From NCBI GenBank assembly GCA_043228905.1, contig JBHGNT010000018.1, positions 2,480,001 through 2,544,000 on the forward strand: 64,000 nucleotides of DNA, read 5' to 3'. The DNA comes from Azolla caroliniana. Taxonomy: Eukaryota; Plantae; Polypodiophyta. A program made the translations under genes and the position numbers. Positions 13,001-45,192 of this stretch are shown here, in pieces (within the stretch, counting starts at the first letter, position 1; each line of letters begins with the position of its first letter). The notes under the pieces were generated by a model that saw nothing but the letters and a program-made list of their open reading frames with translations, was not told the DNA's origin and did no database searches.

Positions 13001-15904
13001 CTGATGCTGGCTTGTAGTTTCTATCAGCAAGTAACGCCTTGTGACAAGCCTGTCATAAAAAAGAAGGGAAAATCTAAGTGTTTTCTACCATATTGACTGA
13101 TAATAAATAAAGAACTCCAACTTTTAACATTAATGACCTATTCAAGAAAGTCTAAAAATGCAATTATAAGCTAGCAAATTTAATAAGAATATACAGCAGT
13201 TCTGCAATAAAGATGTGTTAAGCATGCATAGGCAACCGCCTTACATTGCTCTTCTAGTTTATAGTAAAAAGATATTCTTCACAAGTCCAACATAGGAGCT
13301 TACATATTGGATGAGATCACAATTAATATGTACTATGTATCAGCATACATATTACGTACTCATGCCATCTCGACAAAACCTAATACAATCCTCACAGACA
13401 ATATTGTCAATCCCTCTTTATGCTATTTGTTGTTAAGGTCATTCCCAGACCATCGAACTAGGAGACATCACACAACAGTTATGTGTATTGCTTTTTCCAG
13501 AGCCCCCAAGCCTACTGACAGCCTTTTCATAGATATACTTTTGCTCCAACGAATTGCATCTTCAAAGTTCAAATTTAGTTCCAACCCAAAAAACAAATTG
13601 AATTTTTTAAAGTTCTTTCCAAGATTTTCAACCTGCATTTGAAAGTTATTTTTCAGATTCTAGGGTGCTTTTTGACGAAAACTCATGTACACAATATGTA
13701 CTATTTATGTTGTGTCTTGACTACCTATATTTAAGTATCACAATAAGTTTAAACAAGAATGGCTTTTCCAATTCTTTTGCAAGGTTTGAAATCACTTTCC
13801 CTGTTCTTATTGTTGTCTTTTCCTAAAGAATCCATCAGAGAACCAATTATGCCATATACCTAAGTTGAAAAAGTAGAGGTTTTGAATGAATGGAAACTCA
13901 CTGCTTGTCTGGTTAATACACTCACACTATGACATTCCAGTTCAAGGGGTAGTTCACATAATGAAATAGTTGTACTCTAGCTATGTATAACAATATCATC
14001 TCCACTTGGCAAGTTCAATCAGTTAGATTAATTGACCCTCTTAACCTAAACAATTATGAAGTCGGCACGGTCTGAATTTAGCTTAGTCATTCATTGATCA
14101 AACACTGGTTTGATCTCTATTGTAACCGCTTGCCTCAGTCTGACAATATGAGATGATAATATGCAGGGTTTTCATGAAGAGCACTTTATTCATCCCATAA
14201 TACAATGCTGGTTTTATCTTCATTGTCACCGCTCAACTCAAACAATATTCGTGGTACTAAGAAAACGCAAGGCTTTGCTTGAACTCTTGGATTATTCACC
14301 CCATTGCCAAATGCTGGTTTGATCCATACTCAACTCAACCAACAATTTGTGGTACTAAGAAAATGCAAGGCTTTCCTTGAACACTTGGATTATTCATCCC
14401 ATTGTCAAATGCTGGTTTGATCCATATTGTAATCACTCATTCAATCACCAAGTTGTGGTACTAAAAATACGTAAAGCTTTCCATGAAAAGCATTTGGATT
14501 TATCCATCCCTAAACTTCATTTTCCAGCCAAATGTTGGCTGATCAATATTCCACTTTCCAACAAGACGGAATAAATAAACTTTAAGAGCTACTATAAAAT
14601 GCATGATGCAGATTATTAGAAATCCGAGGTAGCAGACAGCTACAAGAGAAGTCATGGTTTACCTCATGGCATCAACGTAGAATCTCTTCCATATTCCAGC
14701 TAGAGAAATAAATAGTCTTTTAGAGATACGATAACAAATATAATGCAAAATTTTGGAATTCTAAGTAGAACATTTAGTAAAATACACCTATAAAGAGAGG
14801 TCTCCATTAACCTCACAAAAATATGTCAATAGAATACAAAGTAGGATGCCTTTCATATTGCAACAAGATGTCCTTTTATAGGAGGTAACAGAGAACACAT
14901 AATGCAATAGTAAATCTAAACATTTCACTTAGAACAATTAACTTACAAAGAGATGCCATTGTTTACCTCATAGCATCATGCCATTAGAATACAAACTAGA
15001 ATCTCTTCCAAATCCCAACAACATAGCATTTTCTTTAGTCTTACAAGAAAATGCACGAAACAAAATAAAGTACAGTAGACAATGGTCCTTTCTTTGAGAT
15101 ATCAGAGAATGCATAATACACAAACATAAAAGAAACGGAAGTAGGATTGAGCTTTGAAGATATAAAAGGGAAAAGGGAAAAGGGCAAAGTGAGGAAAAAA
15201 CAAGTATAACGCAAAAGCATGAATGAAAACATGATAAGACATAATTTTGACAAAATAAAAAGGAACTACAAAGTAGCAAAGAGCTGTGAAGAACTAAAAT
15301 GGTAAAAGAAGAGACATAACGAACTCGATATAGTACCTCGGCAGCTTCAATCAGATGACCTTCTTCTCTGTATAGAATTCCGCAATGGGTGAGAGCACAT
15401 GAATTCTTGGGATCCATTGCCAGAGCTTCAGCAAAGCTTTCGAAAGCTTTCCGAGAGAAACCTTGCATTTGCAAACATATCCCTTTTCCTACAAAAGCCT
15501 CGACATTACGAGGATCCCTTTCGAGTATACTGTTGTAGATGGATATGGCATCGGAGATTTTGTTGCGAGATCTCAGAATGGCTGCGTATGAAAGGCCGTC
15601 TTTTCCACAGAAACGCGGGGTTGGAGATGGAGAAGAAACGTGTTTTGACGCAGTGGCAGAAGAAACGTTCGACGCAGAAGAAGTGACGCGCGAAGCAGAA
15701 GGAGCAGAGGAGGAAACGTGAGAAGCGGAAAAAAAAGCGTTTGAAGAAGAAACGGAGGCTACGGCGCCATTCTGGAAGGCCACTCCCTGCTTCTGTGCTT
15801 CTTGTGCTTTAGGTGGGGAAGAAGGAGGCGAAGAGGAAGACGAAGACGACGACGACGACGACGACGAGGAGGAGGAAGAGGAACTGCGACGTTTCAGGCT
15901 ATGG

Positions 15905-15935
<31 letters not shown>

Positions 15936-16080
15936 GAAGAAGATGCTGCTGCTGCTGCTGCTGCTGCTGGTGAGAAGGAGGATGATGATTTTCTGTGGTT
16001 TTGTTTTCTTTGCTCTCGGGCCATGGTGAAGGCGATGGCGATGGCGATGGTGATGGCGATGGCGCCATGACACCTTTCAT
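7075..16080 (-). CDS. SPY: SPINDLY-type TPR O-fucosyltransferase (GT41), 17 coding exons, about 1036 aa
   Basis: GT-AG exons read on the minus strand: 15337-16080, 12888-13049, 12631-12806, 12456-12531, 10684-10812, 10474-10593, 9975-10043, 9801-9882, 9600-9694, 9452-9516, 8965-9163, 8687-8881, 8508-8602, 8270-8405, 7976-8193, 7607-7734, 7075-7496. They total 3111 nt, in frame. TPR repeats (PAYYNLGVVYSEM, AEACNNLGVIYKDRDN) are followed by SPY catalytic motifs (GYISPDYFTHSV, VDILVELTGHTANN, TFGSFNNLAK, LDTFPYAGTTTTCESLYMGVP). The start ATG is inferred (MKGVMAP). Confidence 0.95.
10070..10430. repeat. Diverged ~198-bp direct duplication in SPY intron 6
   Basis: The block tatgtttg.actcttcaaagt...tagtgctccaaca.tgatacagtt...gctga.atttcag occurs at about 10072 and about 10270. 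Confidence 0.85.
14160..14540. repeat. ~100-bp degenerate tandem repeat (3-4 copies) in SPY intron 1
   Basis: Recurrent gtggtactaa(g)aaa..gcaaggcttt / ttggattattca.cccattg / aatgctggttt blocks. Confidence 0.75.
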
Positions 16081-16167
16081 GTGTGTGTCTTCTTCTTCTT
16101 CTTCAGGAAGGAAGGAAGGAAGGAATGTATAGACAGACAAAAAACACAGACTACTGCGAAAAAAATC

Positions 16168-16201
<34 letters not shown>

Positions 16202-16253
16202 TAGTAGGGTGTGTGTGTGTGAGAGAGAGAGAGAGAGATAGAGAGAGAGTAGT

Positions 16254-16292
<39 letters not shown>

Positions 16293-16366
16293 TAGTAGGG
16301 TGTGTGTGTGAGAAAGAGAGAGAGAGAGAGAGTTGTGTGTGTGTGTGTGAGAGAGAGAGAGTAGTA

Positions 16367-16397
<31 letters not shown>

Positions 16398-16432
16398 AGA
16401 GAGAGAGAGAGTAGTAGTAGTAGTATGTAGTG
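16081..16432. repeat. Compound (GT)n(GA)n(GTA)n microsatellite directly upstream of the SPY start
   Basis: About five iterations of a GT-run / GA-run / GTA module; reads as CT/CA-rich on the SPY sense strand. Confidence 0.95.
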
Positions 16433-19399
16433 TGAACTTTTTGCATTCTCCCAAAGTCAACAATGCGTATGTCTCTCTTCTCTATCTTCTCTCCTTTTCT
16501 CTTGTTGCCGGCCTACCTACCTGCCCTGCCCTTGCCTGCCCTCCTGGGTGTCCCGAGAATCCACATGAATCGGGTGTGTGGAGGATGATGTGCATGTTGG
16601 CTAATGGTCAGCCGGACTTGATGAACCCCGAGAACCTCTTCAAGCCTCGGACGGTTCGGTTCGTACACTCGACCCGTGCTCTCGCCCCGACGCTCTTCCC
16701 TGCGTGACCATATAACATTTGCCTCGAGTGCTTTCCTTCAAAATTTGTGTATGTAGGAAAGATATGTGTGTGCCCCTCTACTTACGATGTGCGCATGTGT
16801 CGTACATGTGAGGTTGCAAGTGTATGTGTGTGTATGTGATTGCGCACGTGTGCCATGGGATGCATTTGCATGAGAGAGGATGTGTATGAACGTGTGAATC
16901 AATCAGAATTTATATGTCCACATATGTGTGTGTGAACATTTATGTTTGTGCGTTTAGCTAACTAAATGTGTGCGTACGTTCATGTGCACCCTTATGTATG
17001 TTTCCTTACATTCGACAAGTATGTGTGTCGAAATGTATAACTTTGTATGTGTAACTTGAGTGTGAATAGATGTTGAATGTGTGTTTGTTTGATATGTGTG
17101 TGTGAATGTGTATGTTGACTATGCGGATGTGTAAGTGTCAATGTAAATTTTATAAGCATGTATATGTGTGTGTTGTGTGTAAATATATGGTCATACTTTG
17201 TAGATGGGCGGCATAGACTTTTACAAATTAGTACATGTATGTATGTGTGTATATAATATATATATATATGCATGTAATTCAAGGGTATTTTGGGAACATA
17301 AAGCTCCCCCTTTTTTTCCATGTTGGTTGTGTCAAATGAATTAGGGAATGGGACGGAAGAGGTAAAGAATCCCTTTATAGTGCGAACACTAGACTCGTGC
17401 CCAAACCAATGGTCATGATGAGGTTTTCGTGACGAGGAGGTTTACATCAGCCTTCTCATTCGTTGTACATGATGGCTAATCATGGATCAAACACCGCTAC
17501 AACATTGTTTAGTTGTTTTCATGATCCTCCTTCCTTCCTAGTTTTCGTGTCAGTGCGCACAATAGAACTTTTGAGTTTTATTGTTATGAGTCCCTAAGAT
17601 AGGCTCCACATGAGAGAACCTTTCAAGTTGTTTAATTTTGAGCTCAACATTGGTGCTTGATGCAAATCTCAAGCATCACCCAATAGAAGGGCATTGGATC
17701 TACATGCTTCACAATTGTGGCTTTGAATACTTGTGTTTGCTAAATTTTTAGTGTAAAGCCCATTTTCTTATTTTGGTCAATGTGCAAACATTTTTGTTGC
17801 AATGTTGGCACAAAATATGGTAGCCTACAATTGTTGTTGTAGGTCATGAATGGCTCCATCTTTCTACCGCCATTTGTTGTAGTAGTTATTTGAATTTGTG
17901 AGTGTAGGTGTTGTCTTCCTCCTTGATATGCACAATCAACCAATTTGTCTCTCTTGGAGGTAGCATTGTATTTGCTTTAAGTGTTGGTGACTTTTTGTTT
18001 ATTTTGATTGCTTCTACATCGGTGATGGCGAGTAGGACTTCCATCTTGCAAAAGTGAGGCTCAACCATTAGTCACCAGTGGGCAAAAAGAGGTCGTAGAA
18101 GCTATCATGAATGGAGTAAAATTAGGGGTTCCTCTTGTAGAGAGGATGGGAGAGGTTGGTGAACGCGGAGAGGTAAGTGTATTCACGTGTTGATGTATGA
18201 CATGGTCTTTGCCATCGAGGAGTGACATCCCCCAACCCTTCAACTAGCCCATTGTGAGGAATACAACCCCTCATGACTCAATAGTGACCCTCAAAGTGCA
18301 TCACGCCAAGATATGAATCATGTTGGCCCCTTCAAAAAAACTTGATTTAATGCATATCTTATTCATGTCGACATTGTTGTTTGGGCAAATTTCCTACCAA
18401 GTTCTTTCTTGGGCCGCTCTTTAGTTTTCTTCCTCTTATGTTCTTTTGGATATCATAATTGTTTTTTCTAGAGATGGATTTTCGGTGTGGGTTCTTTCGG
18501 CGTGCTACAAAATGCCAGTGTGACTGCGACATACACACAAACTCAGCTAAGTCTCGCACCCATTTATTTTATTCTTATTGACACCACAATGACGTCTAAA
18601 CGAGCTAAGGAACATAAGGATATACAAGACGAGGCTATAAGTAAAGATGACTTTTTAGATATGTGTTATCGTTTAACAAAAATAGAGATGGATATGAAAA
18701 AATGGGCAAAAGACGCTCAAACCCACAAGAAAAAAGATAAACAGGAAAAAGACGCTCTCAAGACTGAAATAGAGAATATCAAGATTTATATCTTATAATT
18801 AGGGAAATCAAGGAGAGAAAGAGGTACGTTAGGTTTTAGCTTTAATTTTGGGACATATCTCAAACAAGGAAAAACCATAACAAAAGGTTTATCTCATTCA
18901 CATTCACAATTGGGAGGGTATGAAGGCTTGTAGACATTGCCTCCTCTCTCTCACTAAAGATGTGAAAACAAATATGGAGCAATTGAAGGATATTGTCATT
19001 CTCAAGGCAAGGTATCAATATTTTAGTGCACATGTATGTGGACATTGAATGCTTAGTTTCCCATGCAATGCATGGATTGAAGAAGAATGCCAGTCTTGTA
19101 TCAAAATGTTCAAGCTCACAAAAGGTAAAAATGAGAAACCCCAAGCATTGTATCAATATTGAAGAATGACAAGGAAGATGAGACAATACCATCAAATGTA
19201 ATAAAAAAGAGATGTTTAAACTCCAACCAAAGTTAGCATGGAGACAACTCAAGGGCGAAAAGGAAGATGAGATTAGTGATTTCACTGACAAAGAGATAGC
19301 ACATATATGTAGAAGCTTAATATGCATCATAGGATAATGCATGTGACATTTAATATTGAAACACAATATAAACCATGTGTGTCTATTGAAGATATTAAT

Positions 19400-21359: not shown

Positions 21360-23700
21360 GCCAAGGCCATATTATCTTCCACATTTCCAGTTTGCAATAA
21401 AGTTTGTCTCCATATATACATAACTTGTTAAGTAATTATGGGTTCTGTAAACAATTCCTGTGGAATCATTATTTTCCTTGTTGCTTACGTTTTTTCCCAT
21501 CATTAACTTGAAACACAACTTGGGCATGATCAGAGAAAGTCATACCTGAATCAATGCCAACACTCCCTCCTATCTCCGCAAATAAATCATCAACATAAAT
21601 CCTATCAATTCTTGACAAATTGCCCCATTTAATCTTCTATCGGACCTAAAAAATGTTAAAGAATTATCCAAATTTCCAAAGGATGGTAAATGCCAGACAT
21701 CCAACAACCTTCTATTTATGGTAAATTTTTCCCATGCTAATAATTCTAAACCATGCACTGTTACTCCACCTTCACCACTCCTATCCTCAGGATCCTCAAT
21801 CATATTAAAGTCTCCTGCTACACACCAATTATCTACAATTGATAATGAACTATCCAATTCAATTCACATCTTTAATCGTTCTCTAGAAGAATTAGGAGCA
21901 TACATATTCAGAAAGCCAACCTTTTTATTATGAAATTCCATGATAACATATTGTGTTCTTCCTAACAACAAATTTCCTACTTCCAACATCTTTACTTCCC
22001 ATATATCATGAATAGCCATACATAATCCATCTTGAAGTTGTGTTGATCCATATGTTGGACCCACAACATTTCCCAGTTTTCAGGCAATAATGAACCATAG
22101 ACTTTAGTATGTCTTTCATTTAGATTAAGATGTTCTTGTAACATCACTATGTCCACTTACCCAATTATACATTTATGCAACTATTGCTGAAATCTCCATT
22201 TATATTGTTTACATAAGGATCCCTTAAGACCCTGAACATTCCAAGAAATTATCTTCATATTTACACAAATTTAGAGAGTAATATTTTTTCTTTCAAACAT
22301 CGATTCATGTCTTCTTACGACATATTTTGGAACTTAATCATTCTTCTAAAAGTTATGTAATCTTTACTAAATGCATAATTTAGTTTGTTTATGTACTCTT
22401 TGAATAGAAATCTTACTATCACTTCCTTGAAAATGTTCAATTAATGATTTCGTGGAAATTCTCCAATCATTAGCATCCTTCATGAAAGGATTATGATCCT
22501 TCGAGAAGTGCTTGGACATGGATCTTGTCCACCTCCCTTCAAACGAAGGCAAAGGTCCAATGTCAACTACTTGATTTTTAGTTTGTAGTTCCCCTACAAT
22601 CTCTTGTCCATTCATTGTTTCCAATACATTTATCGGAATGATAGCATTCTCAGCATATAAAACCATTTCACGACTACATCCTTCTTGATGTTCGTTATTA
22701 TATACTTGAACATCAAGTTTAGGATCATCTGGTCTTGATTGTATTCCTTCCACAATCTCCTTGCCAGGACGCCTATTGTTAGGTACTTCCGTATTTCCCA
22801 AATCTTCCATCAACTGAGCTTCTCCATCTTCTATGTTGGTTACCAAATTGTATATATTACCCTTAGGTTGCCATTTGGATTTACCATGACTTGTCTTTTT
22901 TATCATGTGTCTTTTGGCAACTTGAACCCAAGAGCCGCCAACACTTGTTTACGGCTCATCATTTACAACATGTATCAGACCTTTCCTTGAAAAGGAACAT
23001 TCCTTAACTAAATGTCCCATTCTTTTACATAAAAAACATTGATTTGGTAAACCAACATCATATACTTTTTTTTGTCTCTTTCCACATCCCCCATTTTTCA
23101 AATAAGGTAATTTCACATATTTAGACAACGGTTTTCCTCTAGTACATAATAATTTAACTATTGGTATTCCAAATATTTGTCCGTCTTTGTTATGTATATA
23201 GGCATCTAATACAGCTTCAATTAAACCCCCCCAATTAATGCAAGAGATGATGACATTCCTTAGGCAATCTCGGAAAACTTGTAGTTAAAACTAAAAAATC
23301 ATGTTGAGTCTCTCTCATGGTATCAAAACCATGCTTCCATTCCTGAAATTTAACCCATGCTCCTCGTATATCAACAAATTTCATAGCAAGTAATATGTGG
23401 ACAGATGCCTCATCTTGAAACTCGACATGGTAATAGCCTCTTCCAAGAAATTGCACATCTTTAATACGACCAATTTCTACCTGTAATCAAGCTTGTAGCA
23501 AGTGCCTCAACTCTTGCCGATTTGGCCGGAGACCTAAAACTTGTATGATTAAAGAAAATTGTTGCAATTGGTGGATTTCTTGTCTCATATGTACTTCTTC
23601 TTGCTTTGATAACTAAAGCTTGAACATCAACCCCACAACAGGTTGAAAATCGGGAAGTGATTCACGAGATCCTCCCATTGTCGTAGTTGCCTAGGCCGTT
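21360..23700 (-). mobile_element. L1-type LINE 5' portion (ORF1 plus APE endonuclease), pseudogenised and 3'-truncated
   Basis: ORF1-like QFLGRGYYHVEF...GAWVKFQEW and a CFLCKRMGHLVKEC zinc knuckle (about 23000-23045). Endonuclease motifs IISWNVQGL (about 22230-22255), NMYAPN and WCVAGDFN follow. Confidence 0.85.
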
Positions 23701-24169: not shown

Positions 24170-25330
24170 TTTTTTTATTATTACACAAACATATGCCGTG
24201 GTATTATAAAATCATAAAAAATACAAAAGTTGTGTTGGATAAACAAATATACCAATGGACTCCCATGTACTCACATCATGGTCAATTTGATGTGTATATA
24301 CAAAAACCACACATATTTGTATACCATATCTCCAAGTCTACTCCTCCTAGATTGCAAATGATCATGCAATGTAGCCTATACCACTAACATTTGTAGCAAT
24401 AGAATCCATAAACTAAGTTAATAGACATTGTTTCCCAAAATGACGGGAACAATATACATCCATATTATGCAATCTCCATCTTCCCTAAAAATGAGCATTG
24501 AATCCCATAACCTTTTAAAATGCATTTGCTTCCAGAAAATAGCATCAACATTGCCCGTAAAACTTTCGTATTGACCACGTAATGTATGAATAAGCAGCAA
24601 CCAGAATTCAGCAAATATACCATAAGCATTGATCGTGAGTGACATTGTCAAAACCTTATATCCATCGCGCCTTCCGAATCATCCACCTAAGAATAGATGA
24701 AATTGTTTTCGAAATAATATATTTCTCTTTCTAATAGTATGTTATTTTGCCAACTATGGGTATTTCGAAAAAAGCCATTGTTGAACCGGCATTGGGATCC
24801 ATCATATTATCTTTGGAAACATCCACATTCTTTGTCTCAAACTAAATGTATTCAGTTTTTTCAATATTTTGTGAAGTTGGGATGGAAGTTGCTCTTAAGT
24901 AAGAAATCGTGTCCACCATCTGCTATGAAAGTGTGGTTGGCAAATGGGACCTCTTTAATGGATGCATCGAAATATTGGAAGTGGTTATGGAGTATGTGGA
25001 TTCCCAAGAAGATCATACAGTTTCACTAGTTATTGATGCATTATGCATTACCGGTTCGGGCCTGGTTACGGCAAATACATTGTAAGTCGTGTGGATTTGG
25101 ATGTGGTTGTATGACAGAATCAATTAAGAATGTGTTGTGGTCTTGTCCTAAAATTAAGTATGGAAGAGAGTTTTAAGGCTCTTAGTATTGATACATGCTA
25201 ATTGTGTGATCGCTTTGGGTGTTGTTAGGTGGGGCATTTTAGAGGGATGATTGTTGTTGTATGAAAAGGAGGATATAGTGCAAGTCTTTCACATAGTTCC
25301 TCCTCATGTACAAATGGTTCAGCCTTTTCT
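24170..25330. mobile_element. LINE ORF2 3'-end fragments in opposite orientations
   Basis: Minus strand 24418-24720 encodes the C-terminal AEFWLLLIHTLRGQY. Plus strand 24950-25330 encodes a zf-RVT-like WKWLWSMWIPKKIIQF...C..C...ESIKNVLWSC segment. Confidence 0.65.
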
Positions 25331-26885
25331 GTTTGACAGGTTTCAAATTAGGCACAAGGCAAGCAGTTTGACAATGCTCAATTATCACTCTCACTTGACT
25401 CATAATCAATAACGAATACAACGATCCACACCCCTTGGGAATGATATTGGCATAGAGACACAACTTTGTTGTGCTCAATGAGTACACCTTGACCCAATAC
25501 ATAGCATTGGAGGTGAGGTGTTCGATAAAGATTCCTCAGTCAAAATGGCCATTATGTGGCTTCTAGAAAATTTCTAGGGGATGTAAGATTAATGCCTTGC
25601 AATGTTTCCAATTTTGAGATCTACAATGGTGCAATATTGAGACTTGTGATGAGGATCCTTATGTTTTATATGATGTCCTTGTCATGTTAGACATCAAATA
25701 TTTTCTCATACCTCATAGCTTGATGGCAATGTAGATTTTCAAAGGGATGTGATAGGACGCGATGCTCCCTCCATGGTGATTATTCCAATAACGAAGATGT
25801 CGTAGAATCTTTGGACATTGCAATCACTACATAGAGGACCTTTAATAATATTGTACATTAGAAAGCTATTGATCATATATGCAATTGATGAACTTTGGTT
25901 GTGTAGGCTCTTAGTCCTTAGGATGTAGTCTCTCAACGTTTTTCGTGGCTTTCTATTTTATTGAGAACAATTAGTCTGTTGGGTTCCAAGTAGCATGTTG
26001 GAAAGAGAATTTTTGTAATGAACTCCTCATTAATTGGATTGCCTACACATTCACTGTTTAGAGATTCTACATCAATTCTAGGTTTCCATTTTGCAACCCC
26101 GTAATGAAGGGATTCTCCTAGACTGTGTTGGTTAAGGTTTTGACTTTGTGAGGTTTAATGTCTAGAAATATCATGTCTTTAGTTTGTCAATTTTTATGGG
26201 TATTGTGTGTGTAGAGTTTGAGGAACTTATACTCATGTTAAAGTCATAGTTGGAGTTATGTGTGTTTGGGTTTATTGTAACCTATTGGATGTGACTCCTT
26301 AATGCTCTTATGTGTGCTTGTCTATTCCATTCTTGTATATTTCCTTAATAGTTAATGTTAAGTGATTAAGTGAGCTTAAGTTCATTTGTGTGCATTTCGT
26401 TGTTAAGTTTAGGGCTTGATTTGCTCATTCTTTAGTGTTTTTTCATTGTCTTGGGAGCGGATTGACACCATCTCAAACTTGTCCCACCAACAATAGAGCA
26501 TACGTTGTCCCAACTCCCATAGATCTTGGTCCAAGGATAGTTAGGTAATGCTAAGTAGAAATTTTTGTGGAAAGTCCTAGGTGAGTGTTAGGGATGATTA
26601 ATAAGGGCTAGTTTTAGGGGCAAGTGATAGAGGAGAGGAATGGTAGATGTGATTGTTGGGGGTGTGTTGGAGAAAAATACTAAAGGTGAGTGCAAGTTGA
26701 GGATGACTCTAGGGGTAAGTGCTAGGGATGACTCATGAGTATAACATTATTTCCCTAAACAAAGATAAATTTCAAGGACATTAATAAATGCAATTAAAAG
26801 AAATTGATGGGAATCATGGTCAAAGTAAGGAGAAAACAAATTATGTCAAAGCATTCTAAAACAATTGATTTGAATCCATAAACAC

Positions 26886-28314
26886 TGTCAGGAACAGTAC
26901 TAAGACAGAGATGGAATTAGTACTAAAAGAAGTATTAGTACTAAGAGAGGTGAAGAACTCTCGAGAGAAGGAAATAGTGAGTGAGAGGGAGAGAGAGAGA
27001 TCGAGAGAGAGAGAGAGTGATGATAAGAAAAGATATATATTATGTGAAGAGAATGTACAATAGTACCTAGGAGGCTTAAGACTGGCGTTGAACCGATTTG
27101 GTTCGAAATAATGCCTTGTGCCTCCTTTTATAGTGTTCTGAGGAATACTCCTGAAGTTTCTAGAATGTTCCAGAGAGAGAGAGAGTGATGGTAAGAAAAG
27201 ATATATATTATGTGAAGAGAATGTACAATAGTACCTAGGAGGCTTAAGACTGGCGTTGAACCGATTTGGTTCGAAATAATGCCTTGTGCCTCCTTTTATA
27301 GTGTTCTGAGGAATACTCCTGAAGTTTCTAGAATGTTCCAGAGAGAGAGAGTGATGGTAAGAAAAGATATATATTATGTGAAGAGAATGTACAATAGTAC
27401 CTAGGAGGCTTAAGACTGGCGTTGAACCGATTTGGTTCGAAATAATGCCTTGTGCCTCCTTTTATAGTGTTCTGAGGAATACTCCTGAAGTTTCTAGAAT
27501 GTTCCAGAGAGAGAGAGTGATGGTAAGAAAAGATATATATTATGTGAAGAGAATGTACAATAGTACCTAGGAGGCTTAAGACTGGCGTTGAACCGATTTG
27601 GTTCGAAATAATGCCTTGTGCCTCCTTTTATAGTGTTCTGAGGAATACTCCTGAAGTTTCTAGAATGTTCCAGAGAGAGAGAGTGATGGTAAGAAAAGAT
27701 ATATATTATGTGAAGAGAATGTACAATAGTACCTAGGAGGCTTAAGACTGGCGTTGAACCGATTTGGTTCGAAATAATGCCTTGTGCCTCCTTTTATAGT
27801 GTTCTGAGGAATACTCCTGAAGTTTCTAGAATGTTCCAGAGAGAGAGAGTGATGGTAAGAAAAGATATATATTATGTGAAGAGAATGTACAATAGTACCT
27901 AGGAGGCTTAAGACTGGCGTTGAACCGATTTGGTTCGAAATAATGCCTTGTGCCTCCTTTTATAGTGTTCTGAGGAATACTCCTGAAGTTTCTAGAATGT
28001 TCCAGAGAGAGAGAGTGATGGTAAGAAAAGATATATATTATGTGAAGAGAATGTACAATAGTACCTAGGAGGCTTAAGACTGGCGTTGAACCGATTTGGT
28101 TCGAAATAATGCCTTGTGCCTCCTTTTATAGTGTTCTGAGGAATACTCCTGAAGTTTCTAGAATGTTCCAGAGAAATCTAGAATATACATCAATTTTCTA
28201 TAATAAAACATAAATGAAAATAATATTCTACGTATTACAATGTATGGTCTAATGGTCAAGAGCTCAACCCATGTAGCATAAGGTCATGGGTTTGAGTCTT
28301 GCCATATCATGACA
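26886..28314 (-). repeat. 3' LTR of the gypsy element, expanded to 1429 bp
   Basis: Same termini and sequence as 33099-33469, plus a tandem array and an extra ~50-bp segment near 28231-28282. Confidence 0.95.
27003..28174. repeat. Tandem array, 7 copies of a 166-bp LTR sub-unit
   Basis: Unit ends (gttcca) at 27172, 27340, 27506, 27672, 27838, 28004 and 28170. Copies 2-7 appear identical apart from GA-run length. Confidence 0.97.
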
Positions 28315-31300
28315 TTATCCCCCCTTTAAAACGACGAGTGTAATGAGTCGTTTTGGATTGAGGACCCGGTTTGTCTGGATATTGACAATGGAAGTCTTCA
28401 AGAAGAGCACGAGCATTGGTGACATTCTGTATCGGTTCCCAAGTACGCTCGCTGGGACTATATCCTAGCCAATCGACTAGATAGTAGAGCTTGTTGCGAA
28501 CAATCTTGGAATCAAGGATGGTGGCAACCTCGTACTCAGGTCCATCTTCAAGCTCGATCGGGGGTGGAGGCTGTGTAATACGTCCTGGGATGGTGCTCTC
28601 TTGATAGGGTTCGAGGAGAGAACTATGAAACACTGGATGTATCCGAAGTTGTGGAGGTAGATCGAGACGAAAAGCGACACCATTAATCTTTCCTATAATA
28701 CGGAAAGGACCTAATCGCCGATAATCCAACTTCTCGCATGGGCGAGTAGTCTTGATGTGTCGTCGTAGTAGCCATACCCAATCTCCAATGTTAAAACTGG
28801 ATGGGAGTCGATGACGATCCGCATAAACCTTGTTTGTTTGTTGAGCTTGTTGGAGATGAGTAGATAAATCTGCTTGTATCTTGCGTAACCGCTCCAAACA
28901 ATCCTCCGCGCAAGGATTTGTGGACACCTCTAGGGTTTCAAGTACACACCACCTGGGGTGACATCCCATATAAGCATAAAATGGCGTAACTTTAGTCGAT
29001 GTGTGGATAGAGTTATTATAAGCAAATTCGGCAAAGTGGAGAATATCTGCCCAGTCATCCTGATGATAGCTGAGAAAGCACCGCAAATACTTCTCCAGCG
29101 TTTGATTTGTTCGTTCAGCTTGGTCGTCGATTTGTGGGTGGTAGCTGGAGGAGAGGTTACAAGTGACCTTGATCATTTTAAAAAGGTGCTTCCAGAATTT
29201 TGACACGAACTGGGGTCCACGGTCGTTGATGATACTATCGGGAAGTCCATGATGCCGACATACTTCACGCATGACAATTTCGACACTGTCTTCACTGGAG
29301 ATTTCCTTAGTACAGGGCAAGAAATTAGCCATCTTCATATATCGATCTACCCCTGTTAGAATCGCATTGAACCCCTTAGAGACTGGAAGATCTGTGATGA
29401 AGTCTAGAGCAATGGATTGCCACGACTTGCTTGGAATTGGTAATGGTTCTAATAAACCATATGGATGATGCCTTGACATTTTCGCTCTACAACATGTATC
29501 ACAAGTCCGAACAAAATCTTCGACAAATTGTCGCATACGGGGCCACCAGAATGATCGTTGTACTAAATCTAATGTTTTAGTACTACCAAAATGCCCAGTA
29601 GTTTTGTACTACTCGAAGGCGGCAAGAACCATTAGGAACATACAAAAGTTCTTTAAAGAAGAGTAATCCATCATAGTATTTGAATTGCCGATAGTCCGTA
29701 TCTGGTGGTTGCGACTGTGAACACGACGCTCGAGAGGGATCAATTTGTGCTAGTATAGCTTGGGCGAAAGCATTTGTCTTCAGGTCTGCACGTATGATAT
29801 TGATAACGTGGGAATCCATGGGCATGCCAAAGACCTGTGTTGCTTGCAGTCGTGCCGGTCCCAAGATTACTTGCTTTTGGTTATCGAAAGCTAGCTCGCC
29901 GGGACGCGGTGCTAGGTACGAATGCCGTGATAATGCATCTGCTTTCCCTTGATGCTTCCCAGGTCGATATGTAATCTTGAAGTCGAAACACGTGAGAAAA
30001 TGGGCCCACCGAGCTTGACGTCGATTTAACACATGAGCGTCTTGAAAATAGGCGAGGTTTTTGTGGTCACTGAATATAGTGACTTGATGAGAAGATCCCT
30101 CTAGAAAATGCCTCCATTGCATAAAAGAGTCCACTATAGCCAATAACTCTTTATCATGAATTTCGTAGTTGATTTCGGTGGCGTCAAACTTGCGTGAGTG
30201 AAAAGCCACAGGATGTAGCTTTTCATCATTACCTCGTTGTGATAGAATGCTCCCCAATGCAAAATCTGATGCGTCTGCTTCGATGATGAATGGTTTTTCT
30301 GGATCAACGTGAGCTAGAATCAGAGCTGATGTAAATGCCTGTTTAAGATTCTCAAAAGCCATGTCCACTTCTTCAGACCAAACGAACGATTGTCCCTTCC
30401 TAGTAAGTTGTGTAAGAGGCAAAACGAGCTTTGAGTAATCCTTTATAAACTTCCGGTAAAAAATTGGCAAAGCCTAGAAAGCATTGCACATCCTGCACCG
30501 AACGTGGAGTCTGCCATTCTACCACCGTTTTGACCTTAGCTGGGTCAATGGAGATGCCTTCTGAGGAAATGACATAGCCGAGAAATTCCACATGGTTGCA
30601 CCCGAAACTAAAATTTTCCAGCTTTGCATAAAGACCATGTTCTCGAAGTCGTTTTAGTATTAACAGTACATGAGAATCATGCTCTTCTTGGGTCTTTGAG
30701 TAAACCAGTAGATCATCCAAATAGATGATTAGACACACATCCAAGAGATCTCGGAAAATATCATTTGCCATGTGCTGGAAGACTGCTGGTGCATTAGTGA
30801 GGCCGAATGGCATGACCGTATACTCGAAGTGCCCATATCTGGTGCGGAACGCGGTCTTCCATTCATCTCCTGGTCGGATCCGTACGAGGTTATAGGCTCC
30901 TCATAAGTCGATCTTCGTGAAGAACCTGGCACCATTGATCCGTTCTAAAAGACTTGAGATAAGGGGGAGTGCATACCTATTTCGGATTGTAACCTTGTTC
31001 AAGCCACGGTAATCTACAACGAGACGAAGTGAGCCATCCTTTTTCTTGACGAAGAAAATGGGTGCGCCGGTTGGAGATTTCGAATGTTGTATGAAACCAT
31101 TCTCCAAATTCTCCTCTATATAGGCTTGAAGGACTTCCAGTTCGGTTGGTGACAGATTGTAGGTCGGTCCCCATGGTGGCTCTTTACCCGGTTGTAAATC
31201 AATGGGGCAATCATATGGTCGATGGTGAGGAAGCGTATTGGCTTGTACTTTATCAAACACATCAACATAATGACGATACTTCTCTGGAAGTTGAACGGTG

Positions 31301-31887
31301 GATTCCTCTTTAGTGGTGCTGGAGGGTTTTACTGATATTGCGAAGAGGAACATTTCTTCCTTGCGTCCTTCCTCATGCAACTGATGTAGTGAAATCGTTG
31401 CAATCTCATGAGTAGACCCTCGGGCTTTTCGATGCCGTATTTCTCTTGTTCGCCAATCTATGTCTGGGTTATGTAATTCGAACCATGGTAATCCTAAGAG
31501 AATGGGGTGTTTTGGGATGCTAATTATATTAAATGATACGACACATGCCAGATTATCTAGGACAATATTAACGGGCTCTGACTCTTCTATGATATTTCCA
31601 GAAGCAATGGGACGACCATCAATGACTACTACAGAGGCAAGACACGGGAGTTTTCTGAGAGATATCTGATGATCTTGGGCAAATTTCCTATCCATGAAGC
31701 AAGAATTAGCTCCAGAATCTAGAAGTCCTAAGACATGTATTGGAGGAGTACTTTTAGTACTAAGTGTTACTTGGGCTACGAACACATTGCTAACTTGCTT
31801 AGAGGGAATGGAACCACTAATGGGCTGCACAGATCTAGGGCTGTCCAACCAAATGGCTCCTATTTTGGCTGGACTTAGTCGTTTAAC
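28307..31887 (-). pseudogene. Gypsy pol (PR-RT-RH-IN-chromodomain), disrupted
   Basis: ORF pieces 30901-31848, 30400-30813, 29583-30470 and 28307-29536, separated by a premature TGA and frameshifts. Confidence 0.93.
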
Positions 31888-32970
31888 TCTTCCTCTAACT
31901 GACTAAGGACATCAAATTTGTTTGCTAAATTTGGGCTATTAGTACTATTAGGACTATTAGATATCCCTACTCAAATAGACTCGGGTTTAGTACAATCAGA
32001 ACTAGCAACTATTTGGTTTCCCTGCCTTCTTGGCCTATGGGGACAGTTTACCGCGATATGCCCTGGTCCACCGCAATAAAGACATAGTCGGTTTGCTCGG
32101 CATCATTGCTTTTCTTCTTCCGATAGCGATCCACGACGACATGTGGTGTCAATTTCCATCGGAGTTGGAGTACTTACTGGAGGCGCATTATATGACTCCC
32201 TCGGAAAAGGTTTCGCTACCACTGAGGCGTAGGTAGGCTCTGATCTTGCCCTCAGAATCTGGAATTGTTGTTCCGAACGTTGTTCGAAGAGGCGGTTGTC
32301 GCATCTCACCGTGCGACTAATTGCTTATGTTAATGACTTTGGCTCTTCGGGGAAGGTCAAGAGTAAATCCTTGACATTGTTGCGTAAGCCATAACGGAAT
32401 TGTTCCATCAATGCGTGATCATCCCAAGGGATATCGGCAGCGAGTAGGCGGAAATCTGTAGTGTATGCGGAGGCTGGACGATCACCTTGGCGTAATCGCC
32501 AGATTTTGTTGATTGCAGTCCTTATGCTGTCAGTATCTCCAAAACATGCCTTAAACTCACTTATAAATTCTTCAAAACTGTTTAGTAATGGAGATTCCTT
32601 TTCCAACAATGGAGCAAACCATGCTAACGTTGAGCCACTAAGGAGAGTGCCTACTAGTCCCACTCGTGATGCATCAGTGGGATATTGAGAAGGATGCATT
32701 TGTATCACTAAACGTACCTGATTCAAAAACCCTTCTAAATTGTGATCGAGTCCCATCAAATTTTGCAGGAAGACCGATCTTGGGTTCTGTGTGAATCCCT
32801 TGAGTGCTTGATCCTTGTTGTTGTAATGATATGATAGTCGCTTCGAGTTGTTGTACACGTAACGTTAGCTCCCCATGTTGTTGTTGTTTTTCTAGCGCTA
32901 TTTGTTGAAGATCCCCCAACAAACAATGATTTTCTTGTTCTAGTGTTACAAATTTCTCTTTTAAGCACTA
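31875..32970 (-). pseudogene. Gypsy gag (retrotrans_gag domain plus CCHC knuckle), disrupted
   Basis: EPKIGLPAKFDG, LSGSTLAWFAPLLE, LRQGDRPASAY...FR and TPTPMEID motifs plus a CCHC knuckle. The gag frame ends ...[15 protein letters not shown]. Confidence 0.88.
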
Positions 32971-33098
32971 GAGCTCCGAGAAAACAGATTGGTATTCCTG
33001 AGCGCTAACAGTTTCCATTTTACTAGGGAGGATAAGAGGATTAATAAGAAGATAAAAGGAAGAGGAGGAAGGAAGATCGACCCAAAATCGGTTCAAAC

Positions 33099-33469
33099 TG
33101 TCAGGAACAGTACTAAGACAGAGAAGGAATTAGTACTAAAAGAAGTATTAGTACTAAGAGAGGTGAAGAACTCTCGAGAGAAGGAAAGAGTGAGTGAGAG
33201 GGAGAGAGAGAGAGAGAGAGTGATGATAAGAAAAGATATATATTATGTGAAGAGAATGTACAATAGTAGCTAGGAGGCTTAAGACTGGCGTTGAACCGAT
33301 TTGGTTCGAAATAATGCCTTGTGCCTCCTTTTATAGTGTTCTGAGGAATACTCCTGAAGTTTCTAGAATGTTCCAGAGAAATCTGGAATATACATCAATT
33401 TTCTATAATAAAACATAAATGAAAATAATATTCTATGGTCATGGGTTTGAGTCTTGCCATATCATGACA
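33099..33469 (-). repeat. 5' LTR of the gypsy element (371 bp) with TATA box
   Basis: TG...CA termini; TATAAAA on the minus strand at 33329-33335. Confidence 0.95.
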
Positions 33470-35039: not shown

Positions 35040-35719
35040 TGTTCGGAAACAGGTCCCTCCGGATGGGAAGTGAGAACAACAGTACTGATGAGTAAACTCG
35101 GCCGAGGCCAAAACCGAATGTGGACTACCCGGGTACGGAAGACTCGGTGAGAACCGGATGAGGAGTACCCGGCTACGGAAGACCTGGTGAGAACCATATG
35201 ACGAGTACCCGGCAAGAGCCGGATGGTGAAGGCCCGGTGAGAAGTGCTCACCGGATGAAGAGACATATTCGTAAATATGTTTTCTGAGAGTCCATCGGGG
35301 CTATATTTGTAAATAGACGAAAAGTCATATTAGTATAAATATGACTTAGGGCAAACTTAGTCGTTGGTTGAGAGTTGTTGTCATTCTTGTTGGTGCAAGA
35401 TTAGAGTGCGCAACCGTGTACAAAGAGAGTGAGAGAGAGGAAGAGGTTGTTGCCTCTGTTGTAACCGCCGCCTGTGGCGAAGATAGAAAGCTCGAGGTCA
35501 TTGCTTCGGTGCTTTACCATTTGTACATTCTGACATAGTGATAGTTTGCAGTCTGTGGGCTGCAGTGGTTTTTTCCCTAGTTTGGGTTTTTCCACGTTAA
35601 CATCCTATGTTCTCTTCTCTCCATTGTGCCGTGCATTCATTCCCGTTTTTTTTTCTGTGTTTTGATTCTAAGCTCGGTTGTGGCCGAGCGTTGTTCATCG
35701 GGAGCGTGTGTTCCTGTCA
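35040..35719 (+). repeat. Copia 5' LTR (680 bp; carries one extra 40-bp unit versus the 3' LTR)
   Basis: Matches 40404-41043; tacccgg...ggtgagaacc...gagtacccgg is duplicated near 35125-35210. Confidence 0.95.
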
Positions 35720-38004
35720 AAGTGGTATCAGAGCGAAATGACACAGAAAATGGATGATTCGTTGGGAGGCATGTTCAAGCTCACCGGCTCCAACTATTCG
35801 GTGTGGAAGTCGAAGATGAGGGACATGCTCGTGGTTAAAGATCTTTGGTTGTTGGTTCAGTTCAGGGACAAGAGACCGGACAAAATCGATGCCACGATAT
35901 GGGAGGTGATGCACATGAAGACAACGGCGTACATACGGTGTTTCATCGACATGAGTCTATACAACAACTTCAATGAAGAGAGCAAGGCTCATGAGCTCTG
36001 GGAGAAGATCGACATTATGTTTTAAAACAAAAATGTTGTTAATCAGGTTTTGGTATTCCGGAAGCTAGTAAGACTCTGGTACCAAGATGGCTCCAGCATG
36101 GCGGAGCACATGAATGCCTTCCAGGGGCTGATCCACCAGGCAACATCATTGGAAGTACCTCTTGCCAATGAGGTACTAGCACTACTCCTGCTCGGTTCCC
36201 TCCCAGATAGCTGGGAGACGTTGGTTGTCACCTTGGGCAACACCGGGCCGGAAGGGAAACGGTTATCCCTAGCAAGAGTGAAGTCGAGCTTGCTAGATGA
36301 GGAGGCACGTCGGAAAGATAAGGATACGAGCTCTAAGTCCAAAGCGTTCCTTACCGAATCGGAACGCGGAAGACAAAGGAACCGTAGTCCCCAGAACCGG
36401 GAAAAGTCGGGGATACGGTCAAAGTCAAGGCGGTTCGAGCAGATAACGGAGGTGAAATACCGGGGGCAGTTCGAGGAGTACTGTCGCTCGAAGGGAATCC
36501 GGCTCAAATTTACTGTGCCGAATACGCCGGAACTAAACGGGCTGGCCGAGAGGATGAACCAGACCATAATGGAGAGGGTTCAAAGTATGCTGGCGCATGC
36601 AAAACTACCCAAGAAGGTTTGGGCTGAGGCACTGTCAACGGCGACATATGTGATAAACAGATCACCCTCAGTACCCTTGGACGGAGACACGCCACAAAGA
36701 GTATGGACCGGTAAGGAAGTATCCTACCGGCATCTGAAGGTATTCGGGTGTCTTGCGTATGTGCATGTAGCTAAGGACCGGAGAGGAAAACTAGATCCGA
36801 AGACCCGGCCATGCATATTCCTCGGTTATGGCGACGATGAGTTCGGCTACCGAGTGTGGGACCTGGTCGACAAGAAGGTATTCCGGAGTCGAGATATTAT
36901 CTTCATGGAGGACAAGACACTCGCCAACTGGGAGTCGGAGAAGAAGATAATGAACTCCGAGTCGACCGGTAAGGATCGATTCTACGAGGAGCAGACCCAA
37001 CCGGCAAGAGACCGGTTAGCACTCGAGGAACCAACCGGTTACGGTGAGGATACCGAACCAGCAGAAGAAGAAGTAGAGGAAGTTGAAACCGGAACCGGCC
37101 AAGACCCCGAATCGGCTTCAGATGAAGAGCGAATGGAGGGCCCGGTTACCGAAGCCCAAAGACGGAGATATCCTCTCAGAGAGAGAAGGCCCCCCCGGAG
37201 ATTTCCAGATGCAGAGCATGTGCTGCTAACCGATGAGGGGGAGCCAGAAAGCTTCGTAGAGGCGAAGGATGACACCCACAACTGCAAATGGTTAAGTGCC
37301 ATGCAGGATGAGATGGATTCCCTGCATGAGAACCATACGTACGAATTGGTGGAGCTGCCGAAAGGAAAGCGGGCACTCCGAAACAAGTGGGTGTACAAGT
37401 TGAAACTGGGAGATGCCGGCAACCCCCCGAGATACAAAGATAGGATCGTGGTGAAGGGGTTCTAGCAGAAGAAGGGCGTGGACTTCGACGAGATATTTGC
37501 CCCGGTAGTAAAGATGACCTCCATCCGGATGGTGCCGAGTATAGCGGCAAGCATGGACCTCGAGGTAGAGCAGTTGGACGTGAAGACGACATTCCTTCAC
37601 GGTGACCTCGAAGAGGAGATCTACATGCAGCAACCAGAAGGATTCGTGGAGAAAGGGAAGGAGCGCTTGGTTTTTCGGTTGAAGAAGAGCCTGTACGAAC
37701 TGAAGCAGGCTCCCCGACAATGGTACCGGAAGTTCGACTCCTTATGACCGATCAAGAGTACCACAAGACACAGGCTGGTCACTTTGTGTTTGTGAACAAG
37801 TTCGAAGGAGGCGACTTCCTGATACTCCTTCTGTACATGGACAACATGTTGATTGTCGGACGGGACCAAGCCAAAATACGGATGCTGAAGAAGGTTCTCA
37901 ACTGAACCTTCGCGATGAAAGACTTGGGTCCGGCAAGACAGATGTTGGGGATGCATATCATCCGGAACCGGCCAACGAAGCAATTGTGGCTGTCACAGGA
38001 GAAA

Positions 38005-39812
38005 TACGTGACAAAGGTGCTTCAACGGTTCAACATGTCAGATGCGAAACCGGTCGGATCGACATTTCCGGCAAACTGGAGGTTATCCGGTAAGCAAAGC
38101 CCGAAGACAAAAGCAGAGAAGGTGGATATGATGAAGGTTCCATATGCCTCTGCCATCGGGAGTTTAATGTATGCAATGGTGTGTACCCGACCGGATATAG
38201 GATACGCAGTCAGAGTGGTGAGCCGGTTTATACGTGACAAAGGTGCTTCAGCGGTTCAACATGTCATATGCGAAACCGGTCGTATCGACATTTCCGGCAA
38301 ACCGGAGGTTATCTGGTAAGCAAAGCCCGAAGACGAAAGCAGAGAAGGTGGATATGATGAAGGTTCCATATGCCTCTGCCGTCGGGAGTTTAATGTATGC
38401 AATGGTGTGTACCCGACCAGATATAGGATACGCAGTCAGAGTGGTGAGCCGGTTTATACGTGACAAAGGTGCTTCAGCGGTTCAACATGTCAGATGCGAA
38501 ACCGGTCGTATCGACATTTCCGGCAAACTGGAGGTTATCCGGTAAGCAAAGCCCGAAGACGAAAGCAGAGAAGGTGGATATGATGAAGGTTCCATATGCC
38601 TCTGCCGTCGGGAGTTTAATGTATGTAATGGTGTGTACCCGACCGGATATAGGATACGCAGTCGGAGTGGTGAGCCGGTTTATACGTGACAAAGGTGCTT
38701 CAGCGGTTCAACATGTCAGATGCGAAACCGGTCGTATCGACATTTCCGGCAAACTGGAGGTTATCCGGTAAGCAAAGCCCGAAGACGAAAGCAGAGAAGG
38801 TGGATATGATGAAGGTTCCATATGCCTCTGCCGTCGGGAGTTTAATGTATGCAATGGTGTGTACCCGACCGGATATAGGATACGCAGTCAGAGTGGTGAG
38901 CCGGTTTATACGTGACAAAGGTGCTTCAGCGGTTCAACATGTCAGATGCGAAACCGGTCGTATCGACATTTCCGGCAAACTGGAGGTTATCCGGTAAGCA
39001 AAGCCCGAAGACGAAAGCAGAGAAGGTGGATATGATGAAGGTTCCATATGCCTCTGCCGTCGGGAGTTTAATGTATGCAATGGTGTGTACCCGACCGGAT
39101 ATAGGATACGCAGTCGGAGTGGTGAGCCGGTTTATACGTGACAAAGGTGCTTCAACGGTTCAACATGTCAGATGTGAAACCGGTCGTATCGACATTTCCG
39201 GCAAACTGGAGGTTATCTGGTAAGCAAAGCCCGAAGACAAAAGTAGAGAAGGTGGATATGATGAAGGTTCCATATGCCTCTACCGTCGGGAGTTTAATGT
39301 ATGCAATGGTGTGTACCCGACCGGATATAGGATACGCAGTTGGAGTGGTGAGCCGGTTTATACGTGACAAAGGTGCTTCAGCGGTTCAACATGACAGATG
39401 CGAAACCGGTCGTATCGACATTTCCGGCAAACTGGAGGTTATCCGGTAAGCAAAGCCCGAAGACGAAAGCAGAGAAGGTGGATATGATGAAGGTTCCATA
39501 TGCCTCTACCGTCGGGAGTTTAATGTATGCAATAGTGTGTACCCGACCGGATATAGGATACGCAGTCGGAGTGGTGAGCCGGTTTATACGTGACAAAGGT
39601 GCTTCAGCGGTTCAACATGTCAGATGCGAAACCGGTCGGATCGACATTTCCGGCAAACTGGAGGTTATCCGGTAAGCAAAGCCTAAAGACGAAAGCAAAG
39701 AAGGTGGATATGATGAAGGTTCCATATGCCTCTGCCGTCGGGAGTTTAATGTATGCAATGGTGTGTACCCGGCCGGATATAGGATACGCAGTCAGAGTGG
39801 TGAGCCGGTTTA
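38005..39812 (+). repeat. Tandem array, 8 copies of a 226-bp piece of copia RT
   Basis: Unit starts (tacgtgacaaagg) at 38005, 38231, 38457, 38683, 38909, 39135, 39361 and 39587. Copies differ by a few substitutions. Confidence 0.98.
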
Positions 39813-45190: not shown

Positions 45191-45192
45191 CA

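What the first reader, a model, noticed from the sequence alone, without database searches (positions are those of the whole stretch)
27003..28174. Seven-fold amplification of the promoter/R module in only one gypsy LTR
Seen: each 166-bp unit contains the minus-strand TATAAAA, the predicted transcription start with its self-primer sequence (AAATCGGTTCAA), and a TC run; the 5' LTR has one copy. Copies 2-7 share a GGTAAG variant (copy 1 and the 5' LTR have GATAAG) and are otherwise identical, whereas the two LTRs differ at several sites. Inference: the amplification came after insertion and is recent. It creates seven tandem outward-firing promoters pointing toward SPY (same strand, about 10.8 kb away) and is a likely siRNA/methylation focus.
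Basis: partly seen in the sequence, partly recalled or inferred. Interest (0 to 1): 0.7.

Follow-up and report, generated by a model that had tools for sequence, protein, structure and literature searches.

The report
Repeated promoter block in retrotransposon LTR
One end of a broken plant jumping gene carries seven head-to-tail copies of its predicted promoter block; they likely arose after insertion by copying slips at a short AG repeat, similar repeats occur in other copies of the family, and nothing links them to the SPY gene 11 kb away, so this is an ordinary repeat.

Summary
The array is real: seven 156-bp cores with GA linkers (27006-28174) in the 3' LTR of a 6.6-kb, self-priming, Tcn1-like chromovirus; the 5' LTR has one. 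All seven units share C27066, where the 5' LTR and the family have G (830 against 18 genome matches), so it arose after insertion. It is not unique and only partly recent. A 3.7-kb ectopic copy of this locus on contig C14 has the same junction, three units and the GGTAAG variant. Six other family members carry independent duplications of the TATA segment (88-297 bp, 2-4 units); in 4 of 4 elements with both LTRs intact only one LTR is affected. The junction joins the only AGAGA in U3 to the GA tract, which fits microhomology slippage and later unequal exchange. An effect on SPY has no support: 10.8 kb of decayed repeats with ten AATAAA lie between, and expression could not be tested. Verdict: a new small member of the known retrotransposon-derived tandem repeats.

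The parts
26886..33469 (-). Ty3/gypsy chromovirus (Tcn1-like), full length; the polyprotein lies in five separate open pieces in three frames
   Evidence: LTRs bounded by TG...CA, TSD AACAC/AACAT; Pfam domains; ORF pieces
26886..28314 (-). 3' LTR, 1,429 bp including the array
   Evidence: polypurine tract directly upstream
27006..28174 (-). Tandem array of 7 units (156-bp core plus 10-12 bp GA linker): about 83 nt of U3 with the TATA box, the predicted R region and the start of the TC run
27023..27023 (+). A in unit 1 and the 5' LTR, G at the matching site of units 2-7; 11 bp from the first junction
   Evidence: 9 genome matches to the G form, 7 of them in this array or its C14 copy
27066..27066 (+). 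Derived C shared by all 7 units (G in the 5' LTR and the family): dates the array to after insertion
27126..27132 (-). TATAAAA of unit 1 (repeats at 27300, 27466, 27632, 27798, 27964, 28130); promoter activity predicted, untested
27088..27099 (-). 12-nt self-primer sequence of unit 1, marking the predicted transcription start (repeats in every unit and at 33291-33302)
   Evidence: exact complement of the PBS, reached by 0 of 5000 shuffles; RNA fold pairs it with the PBS
28165..28182 (+). U3 breakpoint region: the only AGAGA in U3, in the loop of a short inverted repeat that is intact in the 5' LTR and in 21 of 29 sisters
28315..28327 (-). Polypurine tract
28310..32864 (-). gag, protease, RT, RNase H, integrase and chromodomain in broken frames; the chromodomain keeps Y, W, Y at the aromatic-cage positions
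33085..33096 (-). Primer-binding site complementary to the element's own predicted 5' end (self-priming type)
33099..33469 (-). 5' LTR, 371 bp, one unit, with a 50-bp deletion in distal U3
   Evidence: the segment is present in 26 of 29 sister LTRs
24531..28872 (.). Stretch copied ectopically to G000:C14:11255236-11258913, there with 3 units in place of 7
   Evidence: left junction seen in contigs of runs X1 and X6
15335..16080 (-). First coding exon of a SPINDLY-like gene (neighbour only; no link to the array shown)

Best explanation
The array is seven tandem copies of the TATA/R segment in the 3' LTR of a broken self-priming gypsy element, likely made after insertion by a copying slip between two AGAGA stretches 166 bp apart, likely grown by unequal exchange or further slippage, and likely neutral. 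Shown: structure, junction, shared derived base, ectopic copy, other arrays in the family. Inferred order: (1) insertion; (2) substitutions in the 3' LTR, including C27066; (3) first duplication, in which a nascent strand ending in the U3 AGAGA re-paired in the GA tract during replication or break repair; (4) the A-to-G change in unit 2; (5) at least one more unit; (6) a 3.7-kb piece was copied to C14; (7) copy numbers diverged to 7 and 3. Each unit is predicted to hold a core promoter without the upstream U3, followed by the element's own 3'-end region, so any transcripts would likely be short or silenced and would not reach SPY.
For: Junction microhomology: the unit ends in TTCCAGAGA and resumes in the GA tract, and position 277 is the only AGAGA in U3 of a single-unit sister LTR. 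Polarity: C27066 is in all 7 units; G is in the 5' LTR, in 27 of 29 sisters (1 A, 1 unaligned) and in 830 genome matches. C has 18 matches, 10 of them array units; the 5 of the 8 other C carriers examined lie 12-32 mismatches from the 3' LTR and do not share its haplotype. Homogeneity: 0 differences in 6x156 bp, against 5.3 expected at LTR-pair divergence (P 0.005). All 29 closest sister LTRs have one unit. Six independent duplications exist elsewhere, and only one LTR is affected in 4 of 4 elements with both LTRs. Copy number differs between this locus and its C14 copy, 7 against 3, at 5 substitutions in 3,172 bp. A second, unrelated 226-bp x8 array sits in a copia RT in the same window.
Against: Post-insertion origin rests on one polarised site plus homogeneity, and gene conversion could spread a base through an older array. 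Two family arrays (C7, C11) have units as diverged as their LTR pairs (3-7 of 151 against 9 of 196; 6 of 151 against 9 of 208), so they formed at or near insertion and reverse transcriptase can be suspected there. All 4 LTR substitutions fall on the 3' LTR and the TSD has one mismatch, which leaves a small chance that the LTRs are not an original pair. Neutrality is assumed, not tested.
Confidence: 0.75

Rival explanations
1. The first duplication was made by reverse transcriptase while this copy was being synthesised (slippage or template switch between the U3 AGAGA and the TC run near the RNA 3' end, fixed in one LTR only). Later turnover homogenised the units.
For: The unit ends close to the predicted R/U5 border. 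C7 and C11 arrays are as old as their insertions and share the U3 breakpoint at LTR position 281. Three other duplications (C8, C9, C109) break at positions 188-197, beside the self-primer.
Against: All seven units carry the derived C27066, which needs either an RT error in that LTR or complete conversion. Cores 2-7 are identical. C109 shows that such duplications also arise long after insertion (1 of 74 between units against 21 of 207 between LTRs).
Confidence: 0.12
2. The array works as seven outward-firing promoters or as a silencing focus that changes SPY expression.
For: Each unit keeps the TATA box and predicted start, and SPY lies downstream on the same strand. In maize, the TATA-containing CRM4TR repeat gave cDNAs starting 18-43 nt after its TATA box (PMC3648361, passages).
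Against: The 10.8 kb between LTR and ATG hold a decayed LINE-like ORF1 (weak DUF4283 and zinc knuckle hits, below Pfam cut-offs), a dispersed repeat and ten AATAAA, the first 609 bp from the LTR. Units 1-6 lack the upstream U3. At least 1,870 copies of the motif already exist.
Confidence: 0.05
3. The copy number or the identity of units 2-7 is an assembly or polishing artefact.
For: Six identical cores. The C14 copy shows only 3 units.
Against: The same junction was assembled at a second locus with different flanks, whose left junction is in contigs of two studies. Unit-specific variants survive in C18 unit 1, C14 unit 2 and the 226-bp array. A run from another study bridges the insertion boundary by 41 letters without a difference (X2).
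Confidence: 0.05
4. The array was inherited from a parent element that had it in both LTRs, and the 5' LTR later collapsed to one unit.
For: Collapse would also leave GATAAG in the 5' LTR.
Against: A collapsed 5' LTR would carry C at the 27066 site, but it has G. The junction occurs only here and in the C14 copy, with up to 1 mismatch also in a 192-bp array on C7 and an unrelated site on C11.
Confidence: 0.03

Closest known systems
CRM4TR and CRM1TR, maize tandem repeats derived from centromeric gypsy elements (PMC3648361; abstract and passages)
   Same: Derived entirely from one Ty3/gypsy element; arose more than once from similar regions; CRM4TR includes the TATA box; short-homology illegitimate recombination followed by conversion or unequal exchange is proposed.
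   Different: Those monomers span LTR and UTR and lie at centromeric or pericentromeric loci. Here the unit lies wholly inside one LTR, has 7 copies, and the host element is still complete.
Retrotransposon-derived short tandem arrays of Lathyrus sativus (PMC7004042; abstract only)
   Same: Short arrays inside LTR retrotransposons that occasionally expand; 9 of 11 satellites studied began this way.
   Different: There the arrays travel with dispersed elements. Here 29 of 29 closest sisters have one unit and each array is private to one LTR of one copy.
Tcn1 clade of chromoviruses, Tf1/Sushi group (PMC6317226, PMC3350952, PMC2864245; passages)
   Same: Self-priming PBS with no tRNA match tested, and a chromodomain with the aromatic cage; Neumann et al. 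give self-priming as unique to Tcn1 among plant chromoviruses.
   Different: No phylogeny was run here. Those papers list Tcn1 only in mosses and lycophytes; the host of this window was not determined.
Replication-stress tandem duplications with Pol theta signatures in Arabidopsis tsk mutants (PMC13031928; passages)
   Same: Tandem duplications linked to heterochromatin, LTRs, short repeats at breakends and microhomology joining.
   Different: Those are large duplications in a mutant; these are 88-297 bp units in a wild-type assembly, and the enzyme is unknown.
U3 enhancer and promoter duplications in retroviral and retrotransposon LTRs (recalled, from no call)
   Same: Tandem copies of regulatory LTR segments.
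   Different: Those are carried in both LTRs and passed on by replication. This one is in one LTR of a broken copy and includes the start site and R.

Membership tests
Ty3/gypsy chromovirus | Two LTRs with TG...CA ends, TSD, PBS and PPT | tested here: met
   TSD 4 of 5 matching
Ty3/gypsy chromovirus | Domain order gag-PR-RT-RH-INT with C-terminal chromodomain | tested here: met
   (Chromo PF00385 E 1.4e-13; protease and rve hits below Pfam cut-off)
Tcn1 clade | Self-priming PBS complementary to the 5' end of the element's RNA | tested here: met
   12-nt exact complement 33 nt after the TATA box, 0 of 5000 shuffles; paired in the RNA fold; the start site itself is predicted
Tcn1 clade | Chromodomain with aromatic cage (CHD_I) | tested here: met
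   Y, W and Y read at the cage positions in the translation, judged by eye against the description in PMC3350952
Tcn1 clade | RT-RH-INT phylogeny groups with Tcn1/Tf1 | not tested
   no labelled reference set was fetched; best PDB hits of the RT piece are Ty3
Tcn1 clade | Host is a non-seed plant | not tested
   host not determined; an unchecked note on this genome says likely a fern
Retrotransposon-derived tandem repeats | Monomer is entirely a piece of one retrotransposon, arranged head to tail | tested here: met
CRM4TR/CRM1TR type | Monomer spans LTR and UTR | tested here: not met
   unit covers LTR positions about 111-281 of 421 only
CRM4TR/CRM1TR type | Array is transcribed | not testable with these tools
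   no RNA holder listed
Satellite DNA | Long arrays free of the parent element | tested here: not met
   7 units (1.17 kb) inside an LTR; the largest array found in the family
Subfamily-level LTR variant passed on by retrotransposition | Same array in both LTRs and in sister insertions | tested here: not met
   one LTR only in 4 of 4 intact pairs; the C14 case shares the flank, so it is a copy of this locus

The most novel reading that the evidence does not exclude
This Tcn1-like family has a built-in duplication hotspot. The AGAGA in a U3 hairpin loop re-pairs with the GA tract at the R/U5 border, in some copies already during reverse transcription (C7, C11) and in others later (this one, C109). 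The result is one-LTR arrays of complete promoter-plus-R cassettes, a datable series of satellite births, and this array is a copy-number-variable promoter near SPY.
Probability: 0.15. Interest if true: 0.45.

Novelty: new member of a known kind. Interest (0 to 1): 0.2.

Why it matters
Little on its own: tandem repeats born inside LTR retrotransposons are well described. Its use is as a clean, ordered example: insertion, private mutation, duplication at a 5-bp microhomology, ectopic copying, then copy-number change, with six independent parallels in one family of which some date to insertion and some to much later. It also warns that LTR-pair dating and solo-LTR calls can be distorted by one-LTR arrays. 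It would matter more only if unit number changed transcription toward SPY, for which there is no evidence.

Tried and rejected
Read support for the unit junction: contigs of X1, X2, X4 and X6 leave 27345-27356 uncovered, but GA runs were reported as skipped or cut, so this says nothing for or against. Contig depth is no copy number, so 7 units is untested.

Expression: no RNA holder listed; no evidence either way.

tRNA-like look of distal U3 (about 28235-28310; A/B-box likeness recalled): ARAGORN found 0 genes and Rfam only one chance-level hit elsewhere (E 0.38); not supported.

Hairpin hotspot: 5 of 7 U3 breakpoints fall in an 18-bp window (P about 0.002 under a uniform null), but P is 0.02-0.14 under nulls that favour short units. 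An earlier count of 6 of 7 wrongly included C9, whose break there is an internal deletion. The single AGAGA explains the three GA-tract junctions without a hairpin.

3' LTR borrowed from another subfamily: 5 of the 8 other C-carrying LTRs were examined and none fits.

C14 as a sister insertion: rejected, it shares the left flank. C11:2.24 Mb junction hit: not an LTR.

Of the 12 loci, four (C2, C9:4.48 Mb, C13, C14:17.27 Mb) were dropped from the count as complex rearrangements or fragments.

The 201-aa ORF 26856-27461 across the array has no Pfam hit and the unit has no ATG on the sense strand; treated as non-coding.

Literature: a six-term search for TATA/U3 tandem duplications in plant LTRs gave 0 papers; searches gave the general class but not this family. 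Subscription journals are mostly outside the library, and no supplements were read.

Full report
Observation. The array is there: 27006-28174, period 166, 7.0 copies. It has seven 156-bp cores; cores 2-7 are identical and core 1 differs at 27023 only. Linkers are GA runs of 12, 10, 10, 10, 10 and 10 bp. Each unit holds minus-strand TATAAAA and, 33 nt on, the 12-mer AAATCGGTTCAA. The other LTR has one unit.

The element. It spans 26886-33469 on the minus strand, with a 1,429-bp 3' LTR, a 371-bp 5' LTR and TSD AACAC/AACAT. Pfam finds gag, protease, RT, RNase H, integrase and a chromodomain, in five open pieces across three frames, so the copy is broken. The PBS is the exact complement of the 12-mer (0 of 5000 shuffles) and pairs with it in an RNA fold. 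The chromodomain keeps its aromatic cage. By Neumann et al. (PMC6317226, passages) these are Tcn1 traits; I ran no tree. The family is large: 1,870 exact matches to a 19-mer over the TATA box. The window lies at G000:C18:2480001-2544000 of a 523-Mb genome.

Timing. The LTRs differ by 4 substitutions in about 353 sites, by the GA tract, and by a 50-bp deletion in the 5' LTR; 26 of 29 sisters keep that segment. At all four sites the family agrees with the 5' LTR. Those sisters were found with the 5' LTR as query, so I checked the site inside the unit genome-wide: G has 830 matches and C has 18, of which 10 are units of this array or its copy. Five of the other eight were examined and are 12-32 mismatches from the 3' LTR. 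Since all seven units carry this derived C, the array was built after the LTRs began to diverge. If cores 2-7 were as old as the insertion, 5.3 differences would be expected and 0 are seen (P 0.005).

A second copy of this locus. The junction motif also occurs twice on C14, 166 bp apart. That site shares the left flank and matches window 24531-28872 at about 99.6%. It interrupts a copia gag with 2 bp of likely microhomology (judged against the window's copia) and is followed by unrelated sequence. It has three units, with GATAAG, a G-variant with one more change, and GGTAAG. Outside the array it differs by 5 substitutions in 3,172 bp, about one seventh of the LTR-pair divergence. Its left junction appears in contigs of runs X1 and X6, from two studies. 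C18 is the likely donor because it has the whole element and unbroken flanks. So the junction and the GGTAAG variant are older than this copying event, and copy number has changed since or during it. The direction is open (P 0.48 for no change in six cores).

Parallels in the family. A search for two TATA 14-mers within 60-330 bp gave 22 matches at 12 loci. Besides this locus and its copy, six are simple duplications inside one LTR: C7 (192 bp x4), C14:18.6 Mb (156 x4), C9:5.67 Mb (119 x3), C11 (297 x2), C8 (221 x2) and C109 (88 x2). Four are complex and were dropped. That is about 7 events against at least 1,870 motif copies, a lower bound because exact motifs were required. In the 4 elements with both LTRs intact (this one, C7, C11, C109) only one LTR carries the array. 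C7 and C11 units are as diverged as their LTR pairs, while C109 units are far younger. Both timing classes therefore exist.

Mechanism. The unit ends in TTCCAGAGA and resumes in the GA tract. Position 277 is the only AGAGA in U3, and it lies in the loop of a short inverted repeat (-6.4 kcal/mol as DNA; intact in 21 of 29 sisters). This locus, C7 and C11 break at position 281, and C14:18.6 Mb and C109 break within 15 bp of it. The clustering is weak once short units are favoured (P 0.02-0.14), so microhomology alone suffices. I infer slippage or microhomology-mediated repair for the first duplication, then unequal exchange or slippage between whole units. An unrelated 226-bp x8 array in a copia RT 10 kb away shows that such arrays are not special to promoters.

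SPY. The gene call holds and the LTR end is 10,806 bp from the ATG. Between them lie weak LINE ORF1 remnants, a dispersed repeat and ten AATAAA. Every 3' LTR has an outward TATA box; the extra units lack upstream U3 and, spanning R, likely include the element's own 3'-end signals (inference from LTR anatomy; the poly(A) site was not mapped). No RNA data were available, so neither promoter activity nor silencing was tested.

Comparison and verdict. It works like the known retrotransposon-derived tandem repeats: CRM4TR in maize also includes the TATA box (PMC3648361, abstract and passages), and short arrays in LTR elements seed satellites in Lathyrus (PMC7004042, abstract). It differs in lying wholly within one LTR and being short. 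I found no paper on this family's arrays, which is weak evidence given the library's limits. The scan's own notes had nothing near or like it. New member of a known kind; interest 0.2.

Noticed in passing
window 38004-39813: A 226-bp x8 tandem array inside the RT region of a copia element (LTR-like repeats near 35040-35725 and 40404-41044); units differ by 1-13 of 226 bases, so it is older than the LTR array.
   Followed up: partly
G000:C14:11255236-11258913 (L043:5237-8914): A 3.68-kb ectopic copy of window 24531-28872 sits between a truncated copia gag and unrelated sequence; it looks like filler DNA from break repair. Its left breakpoint in the window reads TTCCAGA, the same heptamer as the array's breakpoint, possibly by chance.
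   Followed up: partly
window about 28229-28310: Distal U3 looks tRNA-like by eye (A/B-box likeness recalled) but has no ARAGORN or Rfam hit. Overlapping deletions of this part occur in the 5' LTR and in sisters L005 and L010.
   Followed up: partly
window 26336-26370: Contigs of runs X1 and X2 show a form that repeats this stretch with 18 extra letters, present in neither assembled copy: a possible allele or third copy.
   Followed up: no
window about 24170-25355: A dispersed repeat whose two halves (break near 24720) lie in opposite relative orientation compared with other genomic copies: an internal inversion in this copy.
   Followed up: no
window 21570-23486: Decayed LINE-like element on the minus strand (weak DUF4283 and zinc knuckle hits).
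   Followed up: partly
window 26886-33469: The element has Tcn1 traits. The papers read list Tcn1 only in mosses and lycophytes; if the host is a fern, as an unchecked note suggests, this is a very abundant Tcn1-like family outside those listed hosts. A 2021 paper on a wider range of fungus-derived plant retrotransposons is recalled but was not in the library.
   Followed up: no
window 44670-44707 and 45400-45595: (TAACCC)n and AACCAT-type hexamer runs before and inside a NAC-domain gene (NAM hit in ORF 45151-46410).
   Followed up: no
window 14968-16512: The SPY-like first exon encodes a long low-complexity N-terminal extension (poly-Q, poly-H, poly-S) before the TPR region.
   Followed up: no
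window 49024-51693: SRP72-like gene on the minus strand.
   Followed up: no
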